A stretch of DNA of 64,000 bases. It comes from an uncultured Prevotellaceae bacterium (GTDB lineage: Bacteria; Bacteroidota; Bacteroidia; Bacteroidales; Bacteroidaceae). Location: NCBI GenBank assembly GCA_902780635.1, contig CACZGH010000009.1, positions 23,557 to 87,556 on the forward strand. Direction: 5' to 3'. A program made the position numbers and the translations under genes. Shown in pieces: positions 36,578 through 48,741 of the stretch; position 1 is the first letter of the stretch, and every line of letters begins with the position of its first letter. The notes beneath the pieces are model-generated. The model was not told the DNA's origin. It did not search any database and saw only the letters and a list, made by a program, of their open reading frames with translations.

Positions 36578-37150
36578 TCAATGCTTCAGCCAATTGCCAA
36601 TGATTTGACGACCACCCGGTGTCAGCACGCTCTCCGGATGAAACTGGATACCATGGATGTCATACTCCTGATGACGCAACGCCATAATCTGGCCGTCATC
36701 GCTCACCGCAGTGACCTGCAGGCAGGCAGGGAAACCAGCCCTGTCGACCACCCAACTATGGTACCTGCCCATGACCAGACGTTTGGACAAGCCTTCAAAG
36801 AGATAGTCATTGCCAAACTGTGTACCCTCCGTAGCGACACCATGATACACCTCACTCAGATTGGTCAGTTTGGCACCAAACACTTCACCAATGGCCTGAT
36901 GGCCTAAGCAGACCCCAAGGATAGGCTTTACGCCAGCATACGTGGAGATGACTTGTGTGAGCAACCCTGCCTCTGACGGGATGCCGGGTCCTGGACTTAA
37001 TATGATCTTGTCAAAAGCGTCCAACTGCCCCATCTCAAACTGGTCGTTGCGCCAGACGGTCACCTCCGCACCCAATTCCCTCACAAGGTGTGCCAGATTG
37101 TATGTAAAGGAGTCGTAATTGTCTATGATGATTACTTTCTTCATTTCCAT
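36578..37150 (-). CDS. trpG: anthranilate synthase component II (glutamine amidotransferase)
   Basis: IIIDNYDSFTYNL, GVCLGHQAI, GIQFHPES. Confidence 0.92.
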   Translation of the reverse strand: MEMKKVIIIDNYDSFTYNLAHLVRELGAEVTVWRNDQFEMGQLDAFDKIILSPGPGIPSEAGLLTQVISTYAGVKPILGVCLGHQAIGEVFGAKLTNLSEVYHGVATEGTQFGNDYLFEGLSKRLVMGRYHSWVVDRAGFPACLQVTAVSDDGQIMALRHQEYDIHGIQFHPESVLTPGGRQIIGNWLKH

Positions 37151-37165
37151 GTCATTTAACAGCGT

Positions 37166-38596
37166 TTAGATTTCTCCTGCCATCATAATAGCCCTCCGAA
37201 GCGCGCCAAGTTTGTTGTTCACTTCCTGCAATTCATATTCTTCGTCGCTCTTGGCCACAATGCCTCCTCCGGCCTGAAACCACAACTCGCCGTTGCGGCT
37301 GACAAAGGTACGGATGGTGATGGCCTGATTGAGCTGACCATCAAAGCCGATATAGCCGATACATCCTCCATAGGCACCTCGGTTGTGGGGCTCGTACTCA
37401 CTGATGAGCTGCATGGCTCTCACTTTGGGGGCGCCACTCAGCGTGCCGGCGGGGAAGGTGTCGATGAAAGCCTTCACTGGGTCAGCGTCTGCATTGAGCA
37501 CTCCCGACACACGGCTCACCAAATGAATCACATGGCTGTAATACTGTAAGTCTTTGTAGAAGTCGACCTTCACCTGATGGCAGTTGCGACTCAGGTCATT
37601 GCGAGCCAGGTCGACAAGCATCACATGCTCAGCATTCTCCTTAGGGTCGTTGCGAAGAAACTCCGCCCCACGACGGTCGGCCTCAGCATCGCCGGTGCGA
37701 CGGGTGGTGCCGGCAATGGGGTCGATGTAGGCGGTGCGCCCCTCGATACGACAATGGGTCTCAGGACTGGAGCCGAAGATGCGGAAGCCACCGAAATCGA
37801 AATAGAAGAGATAGGGCGAGGGGTTGACACTTCTCAGTGCTCTGTAGAGCCGGAAGTCATCACCCTCATATTTCTGCACAAAGCGCCGCGAGAGGACAAT
37901 CTGAAACACGTCGCCCCTCATGCAGTGGGCGATGCCACGGCGAATGTTGGCTTTATGCTCCTCGTCGGTAAGGGGCGAGGAGACATCGCCCACCGGTCGG
38001 AAACTGTAGGAGCGCACGCTGGGCTTGTTGACCTGCCGCTCCAGTTCATCCAGTTGGTGGATGGCTTTCTGCTCGTCTCCGTCAGGGGTCATAGTGACAA
38101 AAATCACTTGGTTGTTGAAATGCTCGAAGACAATGATATCTCTGAAGAGTATATAGTAGAGATCGGGGGCATCGTTGCGCTCCATCGTCATGTCCTTGAC
38201 GGCGATGTTCTCAAAATAGCGCACCGCATTGAACGAGGTATAGCCGTAAAGTCCACAAAAGGATGCGGCCTCGCCCTCAATCTGAAAACGACCCAGAAAC
38301 TCATTGATGGCATGTTCGCAGCGGTAACTGTCGTTCACCTCTCGGCTGACCACCTGGCCGTCGGGAAAAGAGAGCGTGGCAACACCATGGCCGATGGCCA
38401 CACTGGCGATGGGGTTGACACCGATAAAAGAGCGACTGTTGCTCTTCTCATGGTAATCTGAGCTTTCCATCAGAGCACTCTGCGGACATATGTCACGCAG
38501 ACGCATATACATGCCGACCGGTGTGTAGAGGTCGCCCAGTACTTTGCGTGCCATGGTGTGACAGACAAAGACTTTCGATTGTTCAGAATTGTCCAT
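37166..38596 (-). CDS. trpE: anthranilate synthase component I
   Basis: Chorismate-binding core: LSGAPKVRAMQLI, RGAYGGCIGY. Confidence 0.92.
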   Translation of the reverse strand: MDNSEQSKVFVCHTMARKVLGDLYTPVGMYMRLRDICPQSALMESSDYHEKSNSRSFIGVNPIASVAIGHGVATLSFPDGQVVSREVNDSYRCEHAINEFLGRFQIEGEAASFCGLYGYTSFNAVRYFENIAVKDMTMERNDAPDLYYILFRDIIVFEHFNNQVIFVTMTPDGDEQKAIHQLDELERQVNKPSVRSYSFRPVGDVSSPLTDEEHKANIRRGIAHCMRGDVFQIVLSRRFVQKYEGDDFRLYRALRSVNPSPYLFYFDFGGFRIFGSSPETHCRIEGRTAYIDPIAGTTRRTGDAEADRRGAEFLRNDPKENAEHVMLVDLARNDLSRNCHQVKVDFYKDLQYYSHVIHLVSRVSGVLNADADPVKAFIDTFPAGTLSGAPKVRAMQLISEYEPHNRGAYGGCIGYIGFDGQLNQAITIRTFVSRNGELWFQAGGGIVAKSDEEYELQEVNNKLGALRRAIMMAGEI

Positions 38597-39788
38597 ATTC
38601 TCCTGCCTTTTCTTTGTTTTTCAGATAGGTTTCTACATCTTTATCTCCGCGTCCGCTCACCGTGAGCACCACGACATCGTCGGGCGCAAACGTCAACTTG
38701 CGGAGCACTGCCACAGCATGAGCACTCTCGATGGCGGGGATGATGCCCTCCATACGGGTGAGTTCATACCCGGCGAGGATAGCCTCGTCGTCGTTGACGG
38801 CGAGCACCTGCGACCGTCCGTCCTCTGCCATGTTAGCGTGCATAGGACCGATACCGGGATAGTCGAGACCGGCAGAGATGGTGAAAGCTTCCTTGATCTG
38901 ACCGTCATCGGTCTGCATCACCAGGGTGCGTGCACCATGCAGAATACCCTCGGTGCCACAGTGGATGGTGGCGGCAGTGTAGTCAGTGTCCACCCCATGG
39001 CCTCCGGCCTCTGCGAGCACGATACGCACACGAGGGTCGTTGATATAGTGATAGATGGTGCCAGCGGCATTGCTTCCGCCACCGATACAGGCAATGAGAT
39101 AGTCGGGATAGTCACGGCCGGTCTTTTCCTCCAGTTGCCATTTCAGCTCTTCGGAGATGACGCTCTGCATCCTCGCCACAATGTCGGGGTAAGGATGGGG
39201 ACCCATCGTCGAACCGACGATGTAGAAGGTGTCGCGAGGATGGCAGCACCAGTCACGGATAGCCTCTGAACAGGCATCGCTGAGGGTCATATTGCCAGTG
39301 GTGACAGGATGCACCTCGGCACCCAGCATCCGCATACGCTCCACGTTGGTGTGCTGTCGCTCCACATCGGTCTTGCCCATGAAAATCTCACACTTCATGT
39401 TCATCAGCGCACAGACGGTGGCAGTGGCCACACCATGTTGTCCGGCACCCGTCTCGGCGATGATGCGCGTCTTGCCCATCTTGCGGGCCATCAGAATCTG
39501 TCCGATGGTATTGTTGATTTTGTGTGCTCCGGTATGGTTGAGGTCTTCACGCTTAAGATACAGCTGGCAACCGTATCGTTCACTCAAGCGGCGGGCGTAG
39601 TAAAGCGGTGAGGGTCGGCCCACATAGTCGCGGAGCAAGGCTCGGTATTCGGCTTTGAATTCTTCACTCTCGATGATGGGGAGGTAGGCTTCCTGCAGGT
39701 CATGTACACACTTGTACAGAATTTCAGGCACGTAGGCACCTCCAAAACGGCCATAGAAGCCGCGTTCGTCTACAAAATAGTCTCTCAT
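38583..39788 (-). CDS. trpB: tryptophan synthase beta chain
   Basis: LNHTGAHKINN (PLP lysine), GGGSNAAG. Confidence 0.95.
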   Translation of the reverse strand: MRDYFVDERGFYGRFGGAYVPEILYKCVHDLQEAYLPIIESEEFKAEYRALLRDYVGRPSPLYYARRLSERYGCQLYLKREDLNHTGAHKINNTIGQILMARKMGKTRIIAETGAGQHGVATATVCALMNMKCEIFMGKTDVERQHTNVERMRMLGAEVHPVTTGNMTLSDACSEAIRDWCCHPRDTFYIVGSTMGPHPYPDIVARMQSVISEELKWQLEEKTGRDYPDYLIACIGGGSNAAGTIYHYINDPRVRIVLAEAGGHGVDTDYTAATIHCGTEGILHGARTLVMQTDDGQIKEAFTISAGLDYPGIGPMHANMAEDGRSQVLAVNDDEAILAGYELTRMEGIIPAIESAHAVAVLRKLTFAPDDVVVLTVSGRGDKDVETYLKNKEKAGEYGQF

Positions 39789-39791
39789 GGC

Positions 39792-40571
39792 TCAGTCCTC
39801 CTCTAAAACTTGCTTCAACTGACGGAGCGCCTCGTCGGGGTCGCGCGTCTCATTGAGCAGGGTGACAAACTTGCTGCCGATGATGGCACCGGCGGCGTTG
39901 TGGTAGGCACTGGTAAGCGTCTGCTTGTTGGAGATGCCAAATCCGATCATCCGCGGGTTGCGCAAAGCCATAGCGTTGATCTTGCGGAAGTAGGCTTGTT
40001 TGGCGTCATCAAAACTCTTCTGCGCACCAGTGATACTGGCCGAACTGACCATATAGATGAAGCCCTCAGTATGCTCGTCGATCAGGCGGATGCGTTCCTC
40101 GGAGGTCTCAGGCGTGATCATCATGATGACTCTCAGATCATAACGGTCGGCAATGGGTTTCACCACCTCCATATAGTCACGGAAAGGCAGGTCGGGTATA
40201 ATCATACCTGAGACACCGCTTTCCACGCAGTCGCGGCAGAAACGCTCGATGCCATGGTGCATCACCACATTGAGATATCCCATAAGCACAAGGGGTATCT
40301 GCACCTGGTCTTTGATAGCGCTGAGTTGTGAGAAGAGGTGACGCAGGGTCATGCCATTGCGAAGCGCCACGGTGCCGGCACTTTGTATCACAGGCCCGTC
40401 GGCAAGGGGGTCGCTGAAGGGGATGCCCACCTCAACCATGCTGATGCCGTGGCGCTGCATGGCGAGGATGACATCGGCGGTACCCTCCAGTGTCGGACAT
40501 CCGGCACAGAAATAGAGCGACAATAGTTTTTGATCTCCTCGTGAGGAGAACAATTGGTTGATTTTATTCAT
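39792..40571 (-). CDS. trpA: tryptophan synthase alpha chain
   Basis: EVGIPFSDPLADGPVIQ. The ORF-track start at 40577 is TTG. The first ATG is 40571. Confidence 0.93.
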   Translation of the reverse strand: MNKINQLFSSRGDQKLLSLYFCAGCPTLEGTADVILAMQRHGISMVEVGIPFSDPLADGPVIQSAGTVALRNGMTLRHLFSQLSAIKDQVQIPLVLMGYLNVVMHHGIERFCRDCVESGVSGMIIPDLPFRDYMEVVKPIADRYDLRVIMMITPETSEERIRLIDEHTEGFIYMVSSASITGAQKSFDDAKQAYFRKINAMALRNPRMIGFGISNKQTLTSAYHNAAGAIIGSKFVTLLNETRDPDEALRQLKQVLEED

Positions 40572-40590
40572 AATCAATAGAGTGTAATTA

Positions 40591-40623
40591 GCTATTCGCT
40601 GTTGGCTGTTCGCTGTTCGCTGT
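40591..40623. repeat. heptanucleotide tandem array (GCTGTTC)x~4.5 inside the trp operon
   Basis: Read directly: gctattc gctgttg gctgttc gctgttc gctgt. Confidence 0.85.
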
Positions 40624-40673
40624 GGGGTTTTCTCAACTCACAGTTTGGAGGTCGCAACCCGCAGTGGTAATCA

Positions 40674-40708
40674 ACTCCCCCTCTAAGTTAGAAGGGGCAA
40701 GGGGGAGT
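40674..40708. repeat. C5/G5 hairpin element (REP-like) inside the trpF-trpA spacer
   Basis: A 9-bp perfect stem pairs ACTCCCCCT with AGGGGGAGT, with a 17-nt loop. On the minus strand it continues GAGGGGGAGTTGATTAC, nearly identical to the sequence at 44575-44591. Confidence 0.75.
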
Positions 40709-40751
40709 GTGTCCTGTTGGCAAGCGAAAACCGACCAGCAAGCACCGAACC

Positions 40752-41456
40752 CTACGCCCTCAGGCGCTCAACGAAGTCACGTATTTTCTCCACATCCTTC
40801 AGGCCAGGCTCAATCTCAAACTTAGAGTTGATGTCCACGCCCACCATCATAGGATGCTGGATCGACTTGATGGCCTCGGCATCTTCCGGTCCGATGCCTC
40901 CGCTCAGTAGGAAGGGTGTCTTTCCTTCATACTGGCTCAGTAGGCTCCAGTCAAACTTCTTGCCACTGCCACCGGCCTCGGCGCACTTGTTGTGGAACAC
41001 AAAATAGTCCACCACATCTTCGTAGGCAGCACACTGCTTGAAGTCTTCTGCGCTCTCGATGAAGATGGTCTTGGCAATCTTAAAACCAGGGCGGATGTCT
41101 GGATCGAGGGTGTGACGGAGATTGTCAATCATCACCGGCGACTCCTCGCCATGCAACTGTACAATGTCGAGGTTGAAATTGTAGACGCGGGTCACAATAT
41201 TCTGGGGCATATCATCCATAAATACACCCACCCGAAGCGGATGATTGTGGCGTGGCATTAACAGATGAGACACACCAAGCTTAGGGGTCTCTCCTTCCAA
41301 CGAGTTGTAGTCGGGAATCAGTCCGCCCCTTGAGTGGATTTGTGTCACAAGCCTTGGACTGTTGGGACAGAACACCAGTCCCAGCCAGTCTACGCCTAAA
41401 GCGCTCACATCGCGTATATTCTGGGCTACACGCATGCCACAAACTTTGATAAGCAT
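40752..41456 (-). CDS. trpF: phosphoribosylanthranilate isomerase
   Basis: MLIKVCGM..., LSGGIGPEDA. At 234 aa it is somewhat longer than typical. Confidence 0.88.
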   Translation of the reverse strand: MLIKVCGMRVAQNIRDVSALGVDWLGLVFCPNSPRLVTQIHSRGGLIPDYNSLEGETPKLGVSHLLMPRHNHPLRVGVFMDDMPQNIVTRVYNFNLDIVQLHGEESPVMIDNLRHTLDPDIRPGFKIAKTIFIESAEDFKQCAAYEDVVDYFVFHNKCAEAGGSGKKFDWSLLSQYEGKTPFLLSGGIGPEDAEAIKSIQHPMMVGVDINSKFEIEPGLKDVEKIRDFVERLRA

Positions 41457-41472
41457 GTTTTGAGTTTTTGAG

Positions 41473-42282
41473 TTATTGAGTTGTTTGAATCTCTGAGATC
41501 AGTACCGACAAAGCCTTTCCGGGGTCCGACGTTTTCATCAACGTCTCTCCGATGAGGAAGCCTCTGTATCCGGCTTGACGGAGACAAACCACTGTGGTGG
41601 GGGCTGAGATGCCGCTTTCACTCACTTTGCAACATTCTGCCGGCAACTGTTTGGCCAACCGGAAGGAGTTGTCGGCGTCGGTGATGAAGGTACCGAGGTT
41701 TCGGTTGTTCACACCGCACATATCGGGTTCAAGTTCCACATATTCGAGTTCTGACTCTTTGTGCGTCTCCAGCAGCACCTCCAAACTCAGGTCATGGGCC
41801 AACCGTAGCAGGCGTCGACACTCGTCTTTGCGCAGACAGGCGGCAATGAGAAGTGCCGCAGAGGCACCGCAGCGACGTGCCTGGAAGAGCTGATACTCGT
41901 CGATGACAAAGTTTTTGTACAGCACGGGCAGTGTGAGTCCAGCCTGGCGTGCCTGTGTCACAAAGATGTCATGCCCTCCGAAATATCGCTCATCGGTGAG
42001 GATACTCACAGCGGCAGCACCGCCTTGTTCATAGGCACAGGTCACAGCGGCAACCTGGGCATCCTCATGAATCCATCCTTTGGAGGGCGACCGCCGTTTA
42101 AACTCGGCGATGATGCCTGTCGGCGACTCCAGCAGTGCCCTGCGCATCGATGGTGGAGGCGCAGGCTCACTGTCTGTCAGCCGCAGCACATCCTGCTCCA
42201 GTTGCCGGAGTGGAGTCTGTGCCTTCGCCTCGGCCACCTCTATGCGTTTCCACGCCACGATCTCTTCCAGTACATCTTTCAT
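41473..42282 (-). CDS. trpC: indole-3-glycerol phosphate synthase
   Basis: IIAEFKRRSPSKG, NNRNL, SESGI. The start is set at ATG 42282, 4 nt after the trpD stop. Confidence 0.92.
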   Translation of the reverse strand: MKDVLEEIVAWKRIEVAEAKAQTPLRQLEQDVLRLTDSEPAPPPSMRRALLESPTGIIAEFKRRSPSKGWIHEDAQVAAVTCAYEQGGAAAVSILTDERYFGGHDIFVTQARQAGLTLPVLYKNFVIDEYQLFQARRCGASAALLIAACLRKDECRRLLRLAHDLSLEVLLETHKESELEYVELEPDMCGVNNRNLGTFITDADNSFRLAKQLPAECCKVSESGISAPTTVVCLRQAGYRGFLIGETLMKTSDPGKALSVLISEIQTTQ

Positions 42283-42286
42283 CTTG

Positions 42287-43288
42287 TCATGAGTTGAGTT
42301 CGACAAATTTTTGCAGGGTCTTCCATGCTTTGCCACTCTCTATCGACTCTTTGGCGATATCGAGACACTCTTCGATGCTCTTGTCTTGTTCAAGCACCTG
42401 AATGCCGAAGGCGGCATTGGCCAGCACCACATTCTTTTGGTCGCGCTCTGCCTGGTTGAGCAGCACATTGTCAAAGATACGCTTCGCCTCAGCGGGGGTT
42501 GTTCCACCATAGAGTTTCGAGGGGTCGGCGGGGTCGAAACCAAGATGCGACGGATGGAAGATACGCTCATAGCGGTTGGTAGTGACCTTAAAGTCGCCGG
42601 TGAGCGATATTTCGTCATAGCCGTCGATGCTGTTGACGATGCCATAATCTACACCGATGCGCTGATACACATTACTATATAGTCGCATCTGGTCAAGATT
42701 GGCCACTCCAAGCAGCTGACACTTGGGCTGCGAGGGGTTGACAATGGGACCAAGCAAATTGAAATAGGTGGGGAAGGCTAATGCCTTGCGGATGGGCCCC
42801 ACAAATTTCATAGCTTTGGCAAAGAGCTGGGCGTGCAGATAGACGATACCGCACTCTTCCATGGAGCGGTTGAGACGGTCGATGTCGGAGGTGAAGTGTA
42901 CACCGTGTGTCTCAATGATATTGGACGCTCCGCTTACCGACGTGGCGGCGTAATTGCCGTGTTTGGCCACCTTATACCCCGCCCCGGCGATAACGAAGCA
43001 GGAGCAGGTGGAGATATTGAAAGTATTTTTCTGGTCTCCGCCTGTACCCACCACGTCGATGTAGCGGTCGCAGTCAAGCACAGCTTTCACACCGGTCTCC
43101 AAGATTCCGTCACGGAATCCAAGCAACTCATCCACCGTGATGCCACGCATCTGCAAACCGGTGATCAAAGCTGTGATCTGCTCGTTGGGATATTCTCCCT
43201 TGGTGATGTTCACCAAAATGTCGCGGGTCTCTTCCCGTGTCAGCTCTTCATGATTGAGCATCCTGTGAAGGATTTCATTCATTGCCAT
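42287..43288 (-). CDS. trpD: anthranilate phosphoribosyltransferase
   Basis: DVVGTGGDQKNTFNIST, KHGNYAATS. Confidence 0.93.
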   Translation of the reverse strand: MAMNEILHRMLNHEELTREETRDILVNITKGEYPNEQITALITGLQMRGITVDELLGFRDGILETGVKAVLDCDRYIDVVGTGGDQKNTFNISTCSCFVIAGAGYKVAKHGNYAATSVSGASNIIETHGVHFTSDIDRLNRSMEECGIVYLHAQLFAKAMKFVGPIRKALAFPTYFNLLGPIVNPSQPKCQLLGVANLDQMRLYSNVYQRIGVDYGIVNSIDGYDEISLTGDFKVTTNRYERIFHPSHLGFDPADPSKLYGGTTPAEAKRIFDNVLLNQAERDQKNVVLANAAFGIQVLEQDKSIEECLDIAKESIESGKAWKTLQKFVELNS

Positions 43289-43328
43289 ACTAATGTCTCC
43301 TGTGCTTTAATCAATAGTTATAATTTCT

Positions 43329-43363
43329 AAAAAAGGCCTGTCGTAAGAACGGCAGGCCTTTTT
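43329..43363 (-). terminator. attenuator terminator hairpin in the trp leader
   Basis: On the minus strand, GGCCUGCCG-UUCUUA-CGACAGGCC (8 of 9 pairs) is followed by U6. It ends about 40 nt before the trpD ATG. Confidence 0.75.
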
Positions 43364-43405
43364 CATATCTTGGAATAGATTCACACGGCTTGGGTGCTCA
43401 CGACT

Positions 43406-43456
43406 TTAAGATCTTGAGTAACGCCACCACCATGCGAAAACCGTATTTTTATTCAT
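43406..43456 (-). CDS. trpL: trp operon leader peptide, 16 aa with WWW
   Basis: ATG AAT AAA AAT ACG GTT TTC GCA TGG TGG TGG CGT TAC TCA AGA TCT TAA encodes MNKNTVFAWWWRYSRS. It sits between a -7 motif and the terminator hairpin. Confidence 0.75.
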   Translation of the reverse strand: MNKNTVFAWWWRYSRS

Positions 43457-43484
43457 TTTCTTCGTATATATTGCTTTGATGTTG

Positions 43485-43492
43485 CAAAGGTA
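43485..43492 (-). promoter_or_regulatory. -7 promoter motif TACCTTTG for the trp leader/operon
   Basis: Matches TAnnTTTG on the minus strand, 29 nt before the leader ATG. Confidence 0.55.
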
Positions 43493-43746
43493 ATGCTTAA
43501 ATTTGAATCTGCAAATATTTAATCCTTTTTTTTTCGAATTTATCGTTAAAAAGGCACCTAGACCTTATTATTTGAACTCATATTCCCTGCATAACCCTTT
43601 GGAAAAAGATGTTTCATCTGTTTATCCAAACCATTTTTTGAAAAGGAAGTCCGGACTTCCTTGGGTATCTAAAAAAATATTTCTCTTTTCACATAATAAA
43701 TAATATACCTATGTCGTTTAAAATGTAGAATTAAAAGATTTTGCCT

Positions 43747-43872
43747 ATGAAAATATTTACCCACGAAGAATTTGAGCCCTCTCCTAAGACTTTGAAATTC
43801 ATCCTTGAGTTTGCCCACACCTATCGTACGATGGAATACAATGGGCATCGCATGGCTTATTGTCTGAACTAA
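43747..43872 (+). CDS. possible 41-aa ORF upstream of rpe
   Basis: MKIFTHEEFEPSPKTLKFILEFAHTYRTMEYNGHRMAYCLN has a non-repetitive composition and ends 12 nt before the rpe ATG. There is no other support. Confidence 0.25.
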   Translation: MKIFTHEEFEPSPKTLKFILEFAHTYRTMEYNGHRMAYCLN

Positions 43873-43883
43873 ACTACGACTAT

Positions 43884-44534
43884 ATGGCTACAATGGTTTC
43901 CCCGTCGCTGTTGGCGGCCGACTTCACCAATCTAAGCAAAGACATCGACATGATCAACCGCAGTGAGGCCGACTGGCTCCACATGGATATCATGGATGGT
44001 GTATTCGTTCCCAATATCTCTTTTGGCTTCCCTGTGTTGGAGGCGGTGGCTGGCATCTGCCAGAAACCACTCGACGTACATTTCATGACGGTACATCCGG
44101 AAGTCTACATTGCCCAGACGGCACGCCTCGGCGCCATGATGATGAACATCCACTACGAGGCTTGCACCCACCTGCACCGCACTATAGACACCATCCACAA
44201 GGCAGGTATGAAAGCGGGCGTGACACTCAACCCCTCGACACCCGTATCTATGCTGGAAGACATCATTGGTGATGTCGACATGGTGCTGCTCATGAGTGTC
44301 AACCCGGGATTTGGAGGTCAGAAGTTTATTGAGAACACGATACAAAAGACCCAACGTCTGCGCAAACTCATCCAAGAAAGCGGAAGTCACGCACTGATAG
44401 AAGTAGACGGAGGTGTACAAACAGAAACGGCCCCACGATTGGTGAAGGCCGGGGTAGATATCCTCGTGAGCGGAAGCTATGTGTTCAAGGCTAAAGACCC
44501 CATCGCCACTATTCACTCACTGAAAGAGTTGTAA
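43884..44534 (+). CDS. rpe: ribulose-phosphate 3-epimerase
   Basis: VSPSLLAADF, HMDIMDGVFVPN, MSVNPGFGGQKF. The ORF-track start at 43860 is TTG. Confidence 0.93.
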   Translation: MATMVSPSLLAADFTNLSKDIDMINRSEADWLHMDIMDGVFVPNISFGFPVLEAVAGICQKPLDVHFMTVHPEVYIAQTARLGAMMMNIHYEACTHLHRTIDTIHKAGMKAGVTLNPSTPVSMLEDIIGDVDMVLLMSVNPGFGGQKFIENTIQKTQRLRKLIQESGSHALIEVDGGVQTETAPRLVKAGVDILVSGSYVFKAKDPIATIHSLKEL

Positions 44535-45353: not shown

Positions 45354-45456
45354 AATACTTTTGTCCATCTGTGCAAATTTTTAACAAAAAAATGAAGTTT
45401 TATATATCCATGCTCAAAAAAAGAGGATAATATTTTGTTTTTTTGACCACTTTCAC

Positions 45457-45464
45457 TATCTTTG
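45457..45464 (+). promoter_or_regulatory. -7 promoter motif TATCTTTG immediately upstream of the cobalamin riboswitch
   Basis: Matches TAnnTTTG. The aptamer starts within about 5 nt. Confidence 0.55.
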
Positions 45465-45465
45465 C

Positions 45466-45632
45466 AACGGAAAGGTTCGCTATACGCGATGAACAAGGGA
45501 ATGGGGTGTGAGTCCCCAACTGTCCCGCAGCTGTGAGTTCCATTATAGCTATAGGCAAAAGGCCACTGTCGCCATCAATGACGGGAAGGCGCCTATAGAG
45601 GAACATAGTCAGAATACCTGCCTTTTCAAGTA
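45466..45632 (+). ncRNA. cobalamin (B12) riboswitch aptamer
   Basis: The core motifs appear in the correct order: GGTTCGC..AAGGGAATGGGGTGTGAGTCCCCAACTGTCCCGCAGCTGTGAG, then GCCACTG (45562-45568), then GGGAAGGCG, then the B12 box AGTCAGAATACCTGCC (45607-45622). Boundaries are approximate. Confidence 0.88.
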
Positions 45633-45830
45633 AGCTCAGGCTTGCCAGACTCTCTCGATGCAAGGGACGACGGCGCAACTGATACAAACGGCACACCCAC
45701 TCATGGACAAGGCAGCAGCCTGCTTTGTCGGCATTGGGAGAAATAGGCTTTGTTGGCAGGGTCAATAGGCTTTGTTCTCATATAGCACCTATCAGTGAAC
45801 ATCAACCGAAGTGTATTATATAAGTTTCAA

Positions 45831-46203: not shown

Positions 46204-48741
46204 ATGAAAATCCGAAAACATTTCTGGAATCGATGCCGATATCTTCTGTTGGCAGCCGGAGTCATGTTTGCCGGTGGTACCATGCTGACCTCATGCTCGG
46301 AGTATGACCTCGACGAGAGAACACCCGAAGGATGGGGATCCAGCATCTACAGTTGGTTGCAGGAAAACGGCAACTACACCAACACCGTGCGAATGATCGA
46401 CGACCTCGGCTACAAGGAGGTACTGGCAAAAACCGGCTCAAAAACGCTCTTCGTCGCTGACGATGACGCATACAAACGGTTTTTCCAAAACAACAGGTGG
46501 GGAGTGAGAAGTTACGAACAACTTTCTACGTCACAGAAAAAACTGCTCCTTTTCGGCAGCATGATGGACAACTCCATGCAGCTCAACAGCTTGCCAAGCG
46601 TAGAGGGAACACCGCCACGTGAGGGTGAGTGTATGCGACGCTTCGCATCCAACACACCCTACGACTCAGTGAGTGTGCTCAATGCCAGCCAAATGCCTGA
46701 CAACCCCTACTGGAGCCGTTACAAGGAGTCGGGGCAGCCCATGGTATGCATGACCGACAACTCCGTAGTGCCTCTTGTGCAGTTTATAGAGAAACAGTTG
46801 GTCAACAAACGCATCACTAACAGTGACTACGACTTCCTGTATAATAATACAACACACCGTGAGTCGGGCGACGCCAGTGTCAATGGTGTACAAGTGGAAG
46901 AGCCCAACATCAAATGCTCCAATGGTTTCATCCACAAAATGAGCGAGGTGATCACACCACTGCCCAACATGGCTGAGTTGGTCGCACAGAAGCCCTTGGT
47001 CAGCCGTTTCAACCGCCTGCTGGAGCGTTTCTGCGCACCTTACTGGGTGGGGGAGGCCACCACAACCCAATACAATTATCTCTATAATAAAAATGTGGAC
47101 TCTGTATACCAGAAGCGATTCTTCTCTGAGAAATCACAAGGAGGACTGCCTCTCAATGCCACACCTGACAACGGGCCTGTCAACGGTCTGTTGAAATACG
47201 ACCCAGAATGGAACGCATACTATGCCGGACTTGACGATCAGGGCGGCAATATCGCACTACAGCGTGACATGGCCGTGATGATGGTGCCCAGCGACAAGGC
47301 TTTGGATGAGTACTGGAACTCAGGGGCTGGAAAGGTGCTCAGAGACTACTACGGCACGTGGGAGAATGTGCCCGACGAGGTGGTGGTGAAGTTGCTCAAC
47401 AACAACATGCTCAGCTCCTTTGTCTCATCTGTGCCTTCCAAGTTCCAGGGTATCCTCAACGATGCCAACGACCCGATGGGCGTGGAGCAGGAAGCCATCG
47501 ACTCTGTATGGCTGGGGTGCAACGGTGCCATCTATCTCACCAACCGCGTCTACTCCCCCACGGCTTATGTGAGCGTATCATTCCCTGCACTGGTCAACGA
47601 GACCATGAAAATCATCTACTGGGGTATCGAGCAGTTGCAATACAATGTGTATCTCAACTCACTCAACTCTTACTACAGTTTCTTTATACCCACCAACAAG
47701 TCATTGCTCGAGTACATCGACCCATGCTCCTATGGCAAGAGCCAGACACAGCTCTTCCGATTCCACTACGACCCCACCAAGGTCAACGTCAACGACCGCG
47801 TGTGGGCCAGCATCTGGAACTATGACACTGAGACAGGAGAGGTGGGAGACTCTATCGGCCGCGCAGGCTACGACATGGTGTGCAACCGACTGAAAGATAT
47901 CCTCGACACACATATCGTTATAGGTAATGTGGAAGACGGGCAGACCTTCTACCGCACAAAAGGTGGAACAGAGATCCGCGTCACCAACCCACAGGCAGGA
48001 GCCAACGGCATGACCGTGGAGGGAAGCTATCAGATGAATGAGGGACAGCCCATCCGCGTCAGTTATATCTACGACCAGACTCAGGGTGGAAACGGCAAGA
48101 GCTACATCCTCGACGACCAGCCCATCCTCGGCACAAGAAATACCGTGCGCGATGTGCTCGCCAGCAGGCCTGAGTTCTCCAAATTCCTTGAACTGATGGA
48201 CGGCAGCGGACTGTTTGAGCAAATACACCTCCGTCGCAACGCATGTGGTGGTACCAACATCTCGGTATTCAACACCTATCATTATACCATCTACGTGCCT
48301 ACCAACTCCAGTATCGAAGAGTTGCAGCGTCAGGGAAAACTCTCATCATGGGAAGCTGTCGACGCATGGGAGGAAGCCGGCAATCTGACCGCCAAGACAC
48401 AAGACTCACTGCAGATTGTCAACTTCCTGAAATACCACATCCAGGACAATGCCCTCTTCATCGGTGCAGGGGAAGACGCTGGCGACTTTGAGACAGCTGT
48501 CGTCGACCCAAAAACTGAGCGTTTCTACCGTGTCTCCGCTACCCTCAGCAACAACGGCATCACGCTCATTGACTATGCGAAGAACACACGCCATGTGGTC
48601 ACCACCGACCCACGTCTCTACAATCTCGTGGCTCGTGAGTTCCAGTACAACACCACCGACGCCTCTAATGCTAGCAACATTGAGACCAGTTCCTCGGCCG
48701 TTATCCACCTTATCGACAAACCGTTGTTGATTAAAAATTGA
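46204..48741 (+). CDS. large surface lipoprotein with about four fasciclin (FAS1)-like repeats
   Basis: Lipobox MLTSCSEY. FAS1 H1/H2-type motifs recur: KTLFVADDDAYKRF / SNGFIHKMSEVITPL, VMMVPSDKALDEYW / CNGAIYLTNRVYSP, SFFIPTNKSLLEYI, and YTIYVPTNSSIEEL / SSAVIHLIDKPLL. Confidence 0.75.
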   Translation: MKIRKHFWNRCRYLLLAAGVMFAGGTMLTSCSEYDLDERTPEGWGSSIYSWLQENGNYTNTVRMIDDLGYKEVLAKTGSKTLFVADDDAYKRFFQNNRWGVRSYEQLSTSQKKLLLFGSMMDNSMQLNSLPSVEGTPPREGECMRRFASNTPYDSVSVLNASQMPDNPYWSRYKESGQPMVCMTDNSVVPLVQFIEKQLVNKRITNSDYDFLYNNTTHRESGDASVNGVQVEEPNIKCSNGFIHKMSEVITPLPNMAELVAQKPLVSRFNRLLERFCAPYWVGEATTTQYNYLYNKNVDSVYQKRFFSEKSQGGLPLNATPDNGPVNGLLKYDPEWNAYYAGLDDQGGNIALQRDMAVMMVPSDKALDEYWNSGAGKVLRDYYGTWENVPDEVVVKLLNNNMLSSFVSSVPSKFQGILNDANDPMGVEQEAIDSVWLGCNGAIYLTNRVYSPTAYVSVSFPALVNETMKIIYWGIEQLQYNVYLNSLNSYYSFFIPTNKSLLEYIDPCSYGKSQTQLFRFHYDPTKVNVNDRVWASIWNYDTETGEVGDSIGRAGYDMVCNRLKDILDTHIVIGNVEDGQTFYRTKGGTEIRVTNPQAGANGMTVEGSYQMNEGQPIRVSYIYDQTQGGNGKSYILDDQPILGTRNTVRDVLASRPEFSKFLELMDGSGLFEQIHLRRNACGGTNISVFNTYHYTIYVPTNSSIEELQRQGKLSSWEAVDAWEEAGNLTAKTQDSLQIVNFLKYHIQDNALFIGAGEDAGDFETAVVDPKTERFYRVSATLSNNGITLIDYAKNTRHVVTTDPRLYNLVAREFQYNTTDASNASNIETSSSAVIHLIDKPLLIKN

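What the first reader, a model, noticed from the sequence alone, without database searches (positions are those of the whole stretch)
43329..43492. Unannotated 16-codon Trp-Trp-Trp leader ORF plus terminator hairpin upstream of trpD
On the minus strand upstream of trpD I read four elements in order. First is TACCTTTG, a -7 motif, at 43485-43492. Second is ATG AAT AAA AAT ACG GTT TTC GCA TGG TGG TGG CGT TAC TCA AGA TCT TAA (43456 down to 43406), encoding MNKNTVFAWWWRYSRS. Third, about 45 nt later, is GGCCUGCCG-UUCUUA-CGACAGGCC followed by U6 (43363 down to 43329). Fourth, about 40 nt further, is the trpD ATG at 43288. Three consecutive UGG codons in a tiny ORF placed between a promoter and a strong terminator, in front of a Trp biosynthesis operon, is the signature of ribosome-mediated attenuation. 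The ORF is too short to appear in the ORF track. Leader-peptide attenuation is textbook biology in enterobacteria. Outside proteobacteria, including Bacteroidota, it has mostly been predicted computationally. Translation initiation in Bacteroidota is largely Shine-Dalgarno-independent, so a working example there would be informative.
Basis: partly seen in the sequence, partly recalled or inferred. Interest (0 to 1): 0.65.

Follow-up and report, generated by a model that had tools for sequence, protein, structure and literature searches.

The report
Tryptophan leader-peptide attenuator before trpD
A real, conserved 16-codon Trp-Trp-Trp leader ORF and terminator sit in front of a Prevotellaceae tryptophan operon; it is a low-scoring member of a leader family predicted in 2010 (Rfam RF01692), so the kind is not new, but its switching mechanism can now be described and has not been tested experimentally in any paper found here.

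Summary
All four elements are at the stated coordinates on the minus strand, upstream of a seven-gene trpDCFABEG operon of an uncultured rumen Prevotellaceae bacterium.

The interpretation, ribosome-mediated attenuation, is supported by every computational test available:
- The WWW mini-ORF, a stem 1:2 containing the Trp codons, and the terminator are present in 55 of 56 relatives with this operon layout.
- 71 of 72 upstream ATGs are in the UGG frame.

The element is not a new kind. It matches Rfam RF01692 "Bacteroid-trp" (Weinberg 2010) over the full model, at 40.6 bits against a gathering score of 49. Two homologues in the same alignment pass that score.

The main alternative pairing is GUCGUGAG (43404-43397, next to the leader stop codon) with CUUACGAC (43347-43340, terminator loop plus top of the 3' arm). 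It forms in folds that mimic a ribosome stalled on the Trp codons (49/49 sequences). It covaries across distant Bacteroidota (0 of 20,000 random re-pairings as good).

No experimental test was found. Only assembled RNA-seq contigs were available, not raw reads.

The parts
43512..43515 (-). TTTG, candidate -33 promoter element
   Evidence: Read directly. It lies 19 nt upstream of the -7 motif. Its assignment as a promoter element rests on my general knowledge of the Bacteroides promoter consensus; it was not tested.
43485..43492 (-). TACCTTTG, Bacteroidota -7 promoter motif (TAnnTTTG)
   Evidence: A TAnnTTTG motif lies within 170 nt upstream of the WWW codons in 53 of 55 related leaders, and at 55-62 nt in the window's clade. 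The RF01692 match starts at 43476, which fits a transcription start just downstream.
43406..43456 (-). Leader ORF MNKNTVFAWWWRYSRS plus stop codon UAA
   Evidence: An ATG-initiated 15-21-codon ORF through the WWW codons is present in 49/49 aligned relatives, and 71 of 72 upstream ATGs are in the UGG frame. Leader peptides are listed.
43424..43432 (-). Three consecutive Trp codons UGG UGG UGG (the regulatory codons)
   Evidence: Invariant in alignment A1. It is the only one of four TGGTGGTGG sites in the window that is read as WWW.
43411..43437 (-). Region 1: 5' strand of stem 1:2 (UCGCAUGGU..UGG.GU..CUCA.GAU), containing the Trp codons and the invariant CUCAAGA
   Evidence: Minimum-energy fold; stem 1:2 alone folds at -22.0 kcal/mol. 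RNAalifold finds compensatory changes at the base of the stem. The top helix is CUCA/UGAG here but UUAC/GUAA in distant leaders.
43381..43404 (-). Region 2: 3' strand of stem 1:2 (GUCGUGAGCACCCAAGCCGUGUGA). Its 5' end, GUCGUGAG (43404-43397), is the antiterminator core
   Evidence: AAGUCGUGAG is invariant in 49 sequences. The leader stop codon lies 8 nt before to 4 nt after the start of this octamer in all 49.
43340..43347 (-). CUUACGAC: 3' part of the terminator loop plus the top of the 3' arm; partner of GUCGUGAG in the antiterminator
   Evidence: Eight base pairs (one G.U) can form in 49/49 sequences. This helix is the minimum-energy fold when a ribosome is placed on the Trp codons and the RNA has emerged only to this point, at -16.8 kcal/mol, and it appears in 49/49 relatives. 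It covaries in distant lineages.
43329..43363 (-). Intrinsic terminator (attenuator): A5, GGCCUGCCG, UUCUUA, CGACAGGCC, U6
   Evidence: -18.9 kcal/mol. The base of the stem shows A-U to G-C compensatory changes in 22-23 sequences.
43351..43476 (-). Match to Rfam RF01692 Bacteroid-trp (full model, positions 1-131)
   Evidence: 40.6 bits against a gathering score of 49, E = 0.0055 in a 1.2-kb search. It is not reported at the gathering threshold.
36578..43288 (-). Regulated operon trpD-trpC-trpF-trpA-trpB-trpE-trpG
   Evidence: Pfam assignments. The same order, with rpe divergent upstream, occurs in 56 related loci.

Best explanation
This is a ribosome-mediated transcription attenuator of the tryptophan operon and a Prevotellaceae member of the Bacteroid-trp leader family (RF01692). 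The steps below are inferred, not shown. Transcription starts a few bases after the TACCTTTG motif. A ribosome starts on the A-rich leader, which has no Shine-Dalgarno sequence, and translates MNKNTVFAWWWRYSRS. When charged tRNA-Trp is plentiful, the ribosome runs to the UAA stop at 43408-43406 and covers GUCGUGAG (region 2). If no ribosome is present, region 2 is instead held in stem 1:2 with the Trp-codon region. In both cases the terminator hairpin forms and RNA polymerase stops at the U6 tract (43334-43329), about 40 nt before trpD. When tRNA-Trp is scarce, the ribosome stalls on UGG UGG UGG and covers region 1 (through CUCAAGA) but not region 2. The free region 2 then pairs with the emerging terminator: GCC with GGC of the 5' arm, and above all GUCGUGAG with CUUACGAC (loop plus top of the 3' arm). 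The loop bases, which emerge first, could nucleate this pairing. The terminator stem is pre-empted and polymerase reads on into trpDCFABEG. The choice is kinetic, because the terminator is the more stable structure once fully transcribed.
For: Sequence and context. Family match: RF01692 full-length at 40.6 bits; homologues L024 (58.0 bits) and L063 (56.6 bits) in the same alignment pass the gathering score. Conservation: the leader ORF, stem and terminator occur in 55/56 relatives with this operon layout. Invariant blocks are UGGUGGUGG, CUCAAGA, AAGUCGUGAG and the terminator core. Reading frame: 71/72 upstream ATGs are in the UGG frame. Covariation: base of stem 1:2 and base of the terminator. 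Three-state folding: with the ribosome on the Trp codons the 8-bp antiterminator core forms in 49/49 sequences; with the ribosome at the stop codon it forms in 0/49; with no ribosome it is absent in 41/49. Distant Bacteroidales leaders upstream of trpB have quite different terminators, yet region 2 still pairs with the loop and 3'-arm top in 26/26, with at most 2.5% of shuffles as good. In the Weinberg seed members, 7 of 9 show covarying pairs: GUCGUGAC:GUCACGAC, CUGUGAA:UUCACAG, GUCGAU:AUCGAC, GCCGU:ACGGC, UCGUGAA:UUCACGG. Swap test: cognate mean -9.9 against non-cognate -7.6 kcal/mol, with 0/20,000 random re-pairings as good. The peptide after WWW differs between lineages (RYSRS, RPLQLT, HKRELS, NNSRQ) while the RNA pairing is kept, so the constraint is on the RNA. 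Prior prediction of the family as an attenuation leader: PMC2864571 supplement.
Against: There is no experimental evidence here or in the searched literature. Public RNA data were available only as assembled contigs. They show that read-through transcripts exist in a Segatella copri homologue, and at most a weak hint of a depth drop after the terminator (24.6 to 8.4 in one run). For the window itself they are uninformative. Within Prevotellaceae both strands of the antiterminator core are invariant, so they show no covariation; the covariation comes only from between-lineage comparison, where the lineages are not independent. In the full transcript the terminator state is more stable (-24.7 against -18.1 kcal/mol), so the model needs kinetic control and transcription-translation coupling, which to my knowledge has not been demonstrated in Bacteroidota. 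Two of nine seed members do not show a significant loop/3'-arm pairing. The ribosome footprint (-15 to +14 nt) is an assumed value. The Rfam score is below the gathering threshold.
Confidence: 0.82

Rival explanations
1. It is the same attenuator, but the antiterminator is the first reader's pairing: CAAGCC downstream of the leader stop with the GGCCUG terminator arm, a classic 2:3 helix on the 5' arm only.
For: GCC:GGC can pair in 46-49 of 49 sequences. In two seed members the alternative structure is mainly with the 5' arm. All leaders show 5-11 additional pairs to the 5' arm in the stalled-state fold.
Against: In the window this pairing matches 5 of 6 positions. When only the 5' arm and loop are allowed, the best duplex is -9.0 kcal/mol and is broken by internal loops. 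The flanking pairs are unpaired in 15-47 of 49 relatives. The 8-bp GUCGUGAG:CUUACGAC helix is present in all and dominates the stalled-state minimum-energy fold.
Confidence: 0.08
2. The hairpin is a constitutive or partial terminator, or a 5'-UTR stability element, and the WWW ORF is not a tryptophan sensor. Regulation of the operon would lie elsewhere, for example in a repressor.
For: No expression data link termination to tryptophan. Translation of short ORFs that lack a Shine-Dalgarno sequence has not been shown here.
Against: The Trp codons are invariant in 49 sequences while the rest of the peptide varies. The reading frame and the position of the stop codon relative to region 2 are conserved. 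The element is found specifically before the first gene of trp operons in two different gene orders and across the phylum.
Confidence: 0.05
3. The terminated leader RNA, or the leader peptide, has its main function in trans, as shown for rnTrpL and peTrpL of Sinorhizobium meliloti, and the strong sequence invariance reflects that role.
For: The terminator and region 2 are unusually invariant across Prevotellaceae whose TrpD is only about 78% identical. Trans-acting attenuator products exist in other bacteria (PMC6614838 and PMC7298713, listed).
Against: The invariance is explained by each segment having two alternative partners, and region 1 also codes for peptide. The peptide sequence after WWW is not conserved between lineages. 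No target was sought or found.
Confidence: 0.04

Closest known systems
Rfam RF01692 Bacteroid-trp (Bacteroidete tryptophan peptide leader RNA; Weinberg et al. 2010, PMC2864571)
   Same: It is in Bacteroidota, upstream of the first gene of a Trp biosynthesis operon. It has a short ORF with consecutive UGG codons inside a hairpin and is followed by an intrinsic terminator. The alignment covers the full model. The conserved AAGUCGU(G/A)AG block corresponds to the gUCgUaAG of the family consensus.
   Different: It scores below the gathering threshold (40.6 against 49), as do 18 of 20 sampled Prevotellaceae homologues, so standard annotation misses it. It precedes trpD in a rearranged trpDCFABEG operon, whereas the family was described before trpB and trpE. 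The published description and the Rfam model cover only a 'loosely conserved hairpin' and give no antiterminator.
Escherichia coli trpL attenuator (Rfam RF00513 Trp_leader; the Yanofsky model)
   Same: The logic is the same: a leader peptide with tandem Trp codons, mutually exclusive 1:2, 2:3 and 3:4 pairings, an intrinsic terminator, and a stop codon placed so that a terminating ribosome masks region 2. These are inferred from folding.
   Different: There is no sequence or model similarity: RF00513 is not among the matches up to E = 10. This leader has three Trp codons rather than two. There is no Shine-Dalgarno sequence before the leader ORF. Region 2 pairs with the terminator loop and the top of the 3' arm as well as the 5' arm, and in most lineages the leader stop codon (UGA or UAA) lies inside region 2.
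Trp leader-peptide attenuators of Actinobacteria and alpha-proteobacteria (e.g. Sinorhizobium meliloti trpL; PMC1262725, PMC6614838)
   Same: Ribosome-mediated attenuation of trp genes by a short ORF with consecutive Trp codons.
   Different: The sequences and phyla are unrelated. In S. meliloti the released RNA and peptide also act in trans; that was not examined here.
Bacillus subtilis TRAP-mediated trp attenuation and T-box leaders
   Same: They give the same regulatory outcome: a terminator/antiterminator choice in a trp leader.
   Different: Those sense tryptophan through a protein that binds (G/U)AG repeats, or through uncharged tRNA binding, and not through translation of a leader ORF. 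No T-box or other leader or riboswitch family matched at a meaningful score.

Membership tests
Rfam RF01692 Bacteroid-trp | Covariance-model score at or above the curated gathering score (49 bits) | tested here: not met
   40.6 bits, E = 0.0055, full model 1-131; not listed in the gathering-threshold scan of the window. Homologues L024 (58.0) and L063 (56.6), which align with the window throughout, do pass.
Rfam RF01692 Bacteroid-trp | Located in the 5' leader of tryptophan biosynthesis genes of Bacteroidota | tested here: met
   It lies about 40-170 nt upstream of trpD, the first gene of trpDCFABEG. The organism is Prevotellaceae. The family was described before trpB and trpE; here the first gene is trpD because the operon is rearranged.
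Rfam RF01692 Bacteroid-trp | Two or more conserved UGG codons within a short ORF | tested here: met
   Three UGG codons in a 16-codon ORF, invariant in 49 relatives, with the frame conserved.
Rfam RF01692 Bacteroid-trp | Hairpin that includes the Trp-codon region, followed by a predicted terminator | tested here: met
   Stem 1:2 at -22.0 kcal/mol and terminator at -18.9 kcal/mol; consensus structure with compensatory changes.
Ribosome-mediated (leader-peptide) transcription attenuation, E. coli trpL type | Mutually exclusive terminator and antiterminator, selected by ribosome position on the leader ORF | tested here: met
   By constrained folding only: the antiterminator core forms with the ribosome on the Trp codons (49/49) and not with the ribosome at the stop codon (0/49). 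It covaries across lineages.
Ribosome-mediated (leader-peptide) transcription attenuation, E. coli trpL type | Termination at the attenuator responds to tryptophan / charged tRNA-Trp, and the leader ORF is translated | not testable with these tools
   Only assembled contigs of RNA runs were available. No Term-seq, Ribo-seq or plus/minus-tryptophan data were available.
Rfam RF00513 Trp_leader (proteobacterial) | Match to the covariance model | tested here: not met
   It is not among the matches up to E = 10 in the 1.2-kb scan.

The most novel reading that the evidence does not exclude
The Bacteroidota trp attenuators use a conserved antiterminator design that I did not find described in the 2010 description, the Rfam model or the papers I searched. 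Region 2 carries, or directly abuts, the leader's stop codon and resembles the top of the terminator's 5' arm. It captures the terminator by pairing first with the loop and then with the upper 3' arm. All of this works with a leader ORF that is started without a Shine-Dalgarno sequence. If true, the leader in cultivable Segatella or Bacteroides would be a compact system for testing whether transcription and translation are coupled in this phylum.
Probability: 0.5. Interest if true: 0.45.

Novelty: new member of a known kind. Interest (0 to 1): 0.3.

Why it matters
Leader-peptide attenuation needs a ribosome to follow RNA polymerase closely. Bacteroidota start translation largely without Shine-Dalgarno pairing, and I found no experimental study of such an attenuator in this phylum. 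This finding does not change the picture, because the family was predicted in 2010. It does add four things:
- Most Prevotellaceae copies, including those of the abundant gut species Segatella copri, fall below Rfam's threshold and go unannotated.
- The leader stayed at the 5' end of the operon when the gene order changed from trpBEGDCFA to trpDCFABEG.
- There is now a concrete, phylum-wide, covarying antiterminator model that can be tested by mutation.
- The family model could be rebuilt to include region 2 and the whole terminator, which would improve annotation.

Tried and rejected
- The consensus terminator scan found no terminator in 42800-44200. I rejected this as a false negative, because the stem has a C.A mismatch and still folds at -18.9 kcal/mol.
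- Full-length constrained folds always kept the terminator. That seemed to argue against any antiterminator until I folded truncated, co-transcriptional transcripts.
- The TrpB homology search returned only Prevotella proteins at 85% identity or more, so it gave no distant anchors.
- In the metagenome pattern scan about two thirds of the 120 hits were chance matches without a leader ORF or a trp gene; I set these aside.
- My first literal search for CTTACGAC in distant leaders found it in only 3 of 120 and nearly led me to drop the model. Allowing lineage-specific sequence showed that the pairing is kept.
- Metatranscriptome contigs for the window break at the terminator because many co-resident species share the same sequence, so they say nothing about 3' ends.
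- S. copri culture RNA contigs give only a weak hint.
- Within Prevotellaceae, covariation counting on the antiterminator is uninformative because both strands are invariant.
- I considered peptide-level conservation (WWWRxSR) and rejected it as the constraint, since distant lineages have different peptides with the RNA pairing kept.

Full report
**What is there.**
On the minus strand I read, in order:
- TTTG at 43515-43512.
- TACCTTTG at 43492-43485, which matches the TAnnTTTG -7 form.
- An A-rich stretch with no Shine-Dalgarno sequence.
- ATG at 43456, opening the ORF MNKNTVFAWWWRYSRS, which ends at UAA 43408-43406. The Trp codons are at 43432-43424.
- A hairpin GGCCUGCCG/UUCUUA/CGACAGGCC at 43358-43335, flanked by A5 and U6 (43334-43329).
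- An AGGAG at 43301-43297.
- The trpD ATG at 43288.

Pfam identifies the downstream genes on the same strand as trpD, trpC, trpF, trpA, trpB, trpE and trpG (43288-36578). Upstream lie a divergent rpe gene and an ECF sigma factor.

**Is it more than chance?**
The whole leader folds at -47.7 kcal/mol, better than all 200 shuffles (z = -3.36). TGGTGGTGG alone occurs 4 times in the window against 0.67 expected. The other three copies are inside long ORFs read as VVA, GGG or VVV.

Comparison with relatives decides it. The TrpD protein recovered 80 loci from reference genomes, all Prevotellaceae (92% identity for the nearest MAG, about 78-81% for Segatella copri and Prevotella species). They show two operon layouts. 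The window's layout, rpe(-)|trpDCFAB.., occurs in 56 loci. The other, trpBEGDCFA, occurs in 23 or 24 loci.

Among the loci with the window's layout:
- 54 have a 15-21-codon ATG ORF with WWW 110-350 nt upstream of trpD.
- L026 also has the leader, about 390 nt upstream.
- Only L041 lacks it.

In the alignment of 49 distinct leaders (A1) the invariant blocks are UGGUGGUGG, CUCAAGA, AAGUCGUGAG, GCCGU and almost the whole terminator including its loop. Of 72 ATGs within 45 nt upstream of the Trp codons, 71 are in the UGG frame. A TAnnTTTG motif precedes the leader in 53 of 55.

**What it is called.**
A permissive Rfam scan of 1.2 kb gives RF01692 "Bacteroid-trp, Bacteroidete tryptophan peptide leader RNA" as the best match: 43476-43351, full model, 40.6 bits, E = 0.0055. 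That is below the gathering score of 49. At the gathering threshold the window shows only a cobalamin riboswitch elsewhere, which explains why the leader looked unannotated.

Of 20 relatives, only L024 (58.0 bits) and L063 (56.6 bits) pass. Because they align with the window along the whole leader, homology to the family is secure even though the score criterion is not met.

The supplement of Weinberg et al. [quoted passage not shown] It also says no diagram was drawn because it is "a loosely conserved hairpin". Six literature searches found no experimental study of this leader.

**How it probably works.**
The minimum-energy fold has stem 1:2. Region 1 (43437-43411) holds the Trp codons and CUCAAGA. 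Region 2 (43404-43381) holds GUCGUGAG...GCCGUGUGA. The stem folds at -22.0 kcal/mol and is followed by the terminator at -18.9 kcal/mol.

With the full transcript the terminator always wins, even when a ribosome footprint is masked. Attenuation, however, is decided while the RNA is still being made. I masked -15 to +14 nt around a ribosome A site on the second or third Trp codon and truncated the RNA at ...CUUACGAC. The minimum-energy structure is then an antiterminator (-16.8 kcal/mol) made of:
- GUCGUGAG (43404-43397) paired with CUUACGAC (43347-43340), which is the 3' part of the terminator loop plus the top of the 3' arm. This gives 8 bp including one G.U.
- Extensions AC:GU and GCC:GGC onto the 5' arm.

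With no ribosome, or with a ribosome at the stop codon, stem 1:2 or the mask holds region 2 and the terminator forms. In the complete transcript the terminator state (-24.7 kcal/mol) beats the forced antiterminator (-18.1 kcal/mol), so control must be kinetic.

The same three-state behaviour holds in all 49 relatives. With the ribosome stalled, the core forms in 49/49. With the ribosome at the stop codon, it forms in 0/49. With no ribosome, it is absent in 41/49.

The leader stop codon always lies between 8 nt before and 4 nt after the first base of GUCGUGAG. In Segatella it is the UGA inside the octamer (..AAG UCG UGA). In the window's clade a one-base-shorter spacer shifts the frame, and a UAA or UGA sits 4 nt upstream.

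**Is the antiterminator real?**
Within Prevotellaceae both strands are invariant, so they give no covariation. There are only three U-A to U.G changes and one G.U to G-C change, all one-sided. Cells paired are 80.8% against 27-42% when the partner is slid. I therefore looked further afield in three ways.

(a) A metagenome scan for TGGTGGTGG-N(12-35)-AAGTCGTAAG used the family-consensus variant of region 2 and left the terminator out of the pattern. It gave 120 loci, about 40 of them true leaders: an ORF such as ..YWWWRPLQLT or ..YWWWR.LQL.KS, followed by trpB (67-83% identical to the window's TrpB) 100-280 nt downstream. Their terminators differ from the window's and from one another:
- GCCCUGUCGC-ACCU-GCGACGGGGC
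- GGCCCUGCCGC-GAU-GCGACAGGGCC
- AAGCAGCAUAUCGG-ACUUAC-GAUAUGCUGCUU
- GCCCGCCGU-AUU-ACGACGGGC

Yet region 2 pairs with the loop and 3'-arm top in 26 of 26 where a terminator could be called (6-10 bp, -7.1 to -12.5 kcal/mol, at most 2.5% of shuffles as good). The stalled-state fold contains that helix in 26/26. For Prevotellaceae the figure is 47/47.

(b) The original seed alignment with flanks is not biased by my pattern. In 7 of 9 members (6 of 8 distinct) the stalled-state fold has a 6-9-bp helix between a segment at the leader stop and the loop and 3'-arm top. The sequences differ but stay complementary: GUCGUGAC:GUCACGAC, (UU)CUGUGAA:UUCACAG(GA), GUCGUGA:UCACGAC, GUCGAU:AUCGAC, GCCGUAA:UAACGGC, and UCGUGAA:UUCACGG in Cytophaga hutchinsonii. 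Shuffles are as good in 0.3-3.7% of trials. Two members rely mainly on pairing to the 5' arm.

(c) In a swap test over 20 lineages, the 30 nt left free behind a stalled ribosome pair better with their own terminator loop and 3' top than with those of other lineages. The means are -9.9 against -7.6 kcal/mol, and 0 of 20,000 random re-pairings are as good. The five leaders that lack GUCGU rank their own terminator 1st to 4th of 20.

The top helix of stem 1:2 also covaries between sets (CUCA/UGAG against UUAC/GUAA). Its base and the terminator base covary within Prevotellaceae. The peptide after WWW is different in each lineage, so the constraint is on the RNA and not on the peptide.

**RNA data.**
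The locus occurs in bovine, goat and sheep gut metagenomes and metatranscriptomes, but only assembled contigs are held. For the window, contigs break at 43329-43363 because many species share this sequence. Short contigs match only the hairpin and then diverge, so this says nothing about 3' ends.

For the S. copri homologue (L028), three culture transcriptomes have contigs that run from the leader into trpD, so read-through RNA exists. In a fourth run a contig of depth 24.6 ends 3 nt after the T-run, and the next contig has depth 8.4. That is a hint of partial termination and no more.

**Verdict.**
It is a sub-threshold member of a known, computationally predicted family. It is placed before trpD because the operon was rearranged. 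The main antiterminator differs from the one proposed. Whether it responds to tryptophan is inferred and has not been shown.

Noticed in passing
window 45456-45639 (+): Cobalamin riboswitch (RF00174, 95.3 bits), about 570 nt upstream of an 845-aa ORF (46204-48741, +). It overlaps a 121-aa minus-strand ORF (45400-45765) that has no Pfam match and is probably spurious. The riboswitch is conserved at the same relative place in L001, L003 and L004.
   Followed up: partly
window 40578-40751 (-), between trpF and trpA: A 174-nt G+C-rich non-coding insert with a long hairpin (ACUCCCCCU...AGGGGGAGU; fold -56.3 kcal/mol) and CGAACAG-like tandem repeats. blastn finds no copy elsewhere in the window or in the 80 related loci, where the trpF-trpA gap is much shorter in the nearest relative. 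Its origin and effect on operon expression are unknown.
   Followed up: partly
window 43297-43301 (-): A Shine-Dalgarno-like AGGAG lies 8 nt before the trpD ATG. A GGAG/GAGG/AGGA motif is present at -22 to -4 in 41 of 57 related loci. This is unexpected for a phylum in which, to my knowledge, Shine-Dalgarno pairing is rarely used. The leader ORF itself has none.
   Followed up: partly
window 36578-43288; loci L001-L080: There are two trp operon orders in Prevotellaceae: trpDCFABEG with rpe divergent upstream (window, Segatella copri) and trpBEGDCFA (many rumen Prevotella). The leader stays at the 5' end in both, which suggests that the trpBEG block moved to the 3' end.
   Followed up: partly
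window 43641-43660 (-): A perfect palindrome GGAAGUCCGGACUUCC followed by UUUU lies about 150 nt upstream of the trp promoter motif (weak CRISPR-DR57 hit). It looks like a minus-strand terminator that would shield the trp promoter from upstream transcription.
   Followed up: no
L041 (CAKQ.. / JAGAAJ010000093.1), 1-532: This is the only locus with the trpD-first layout that lacks any WWW leader, GUCGUGAG or CUUACGAC in the 532 nt held upstream of trpD. It also lacks a detectable trpF between trpC and trpA, as do L006 and L008.
   Followed up: no
window 43329-43363 and metatranscriptome runs X28, X33: The terminator sequence is so conserved among co-resident Prevotellaceae that metatranscriptome and metagenome assemblies break there. 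Short contigs match only the hairpin and then run into unlike sequence.
   Followed up: yes
L017, L069, L072 (trpG-trpD spacer, about 150-280 nt): Some loci with the trpBEGDCFA order have an unusually long gap between trpG and trpD, where most have under 60 nt. I did not examine it for an internal leader or promoter.
   Followed up: no
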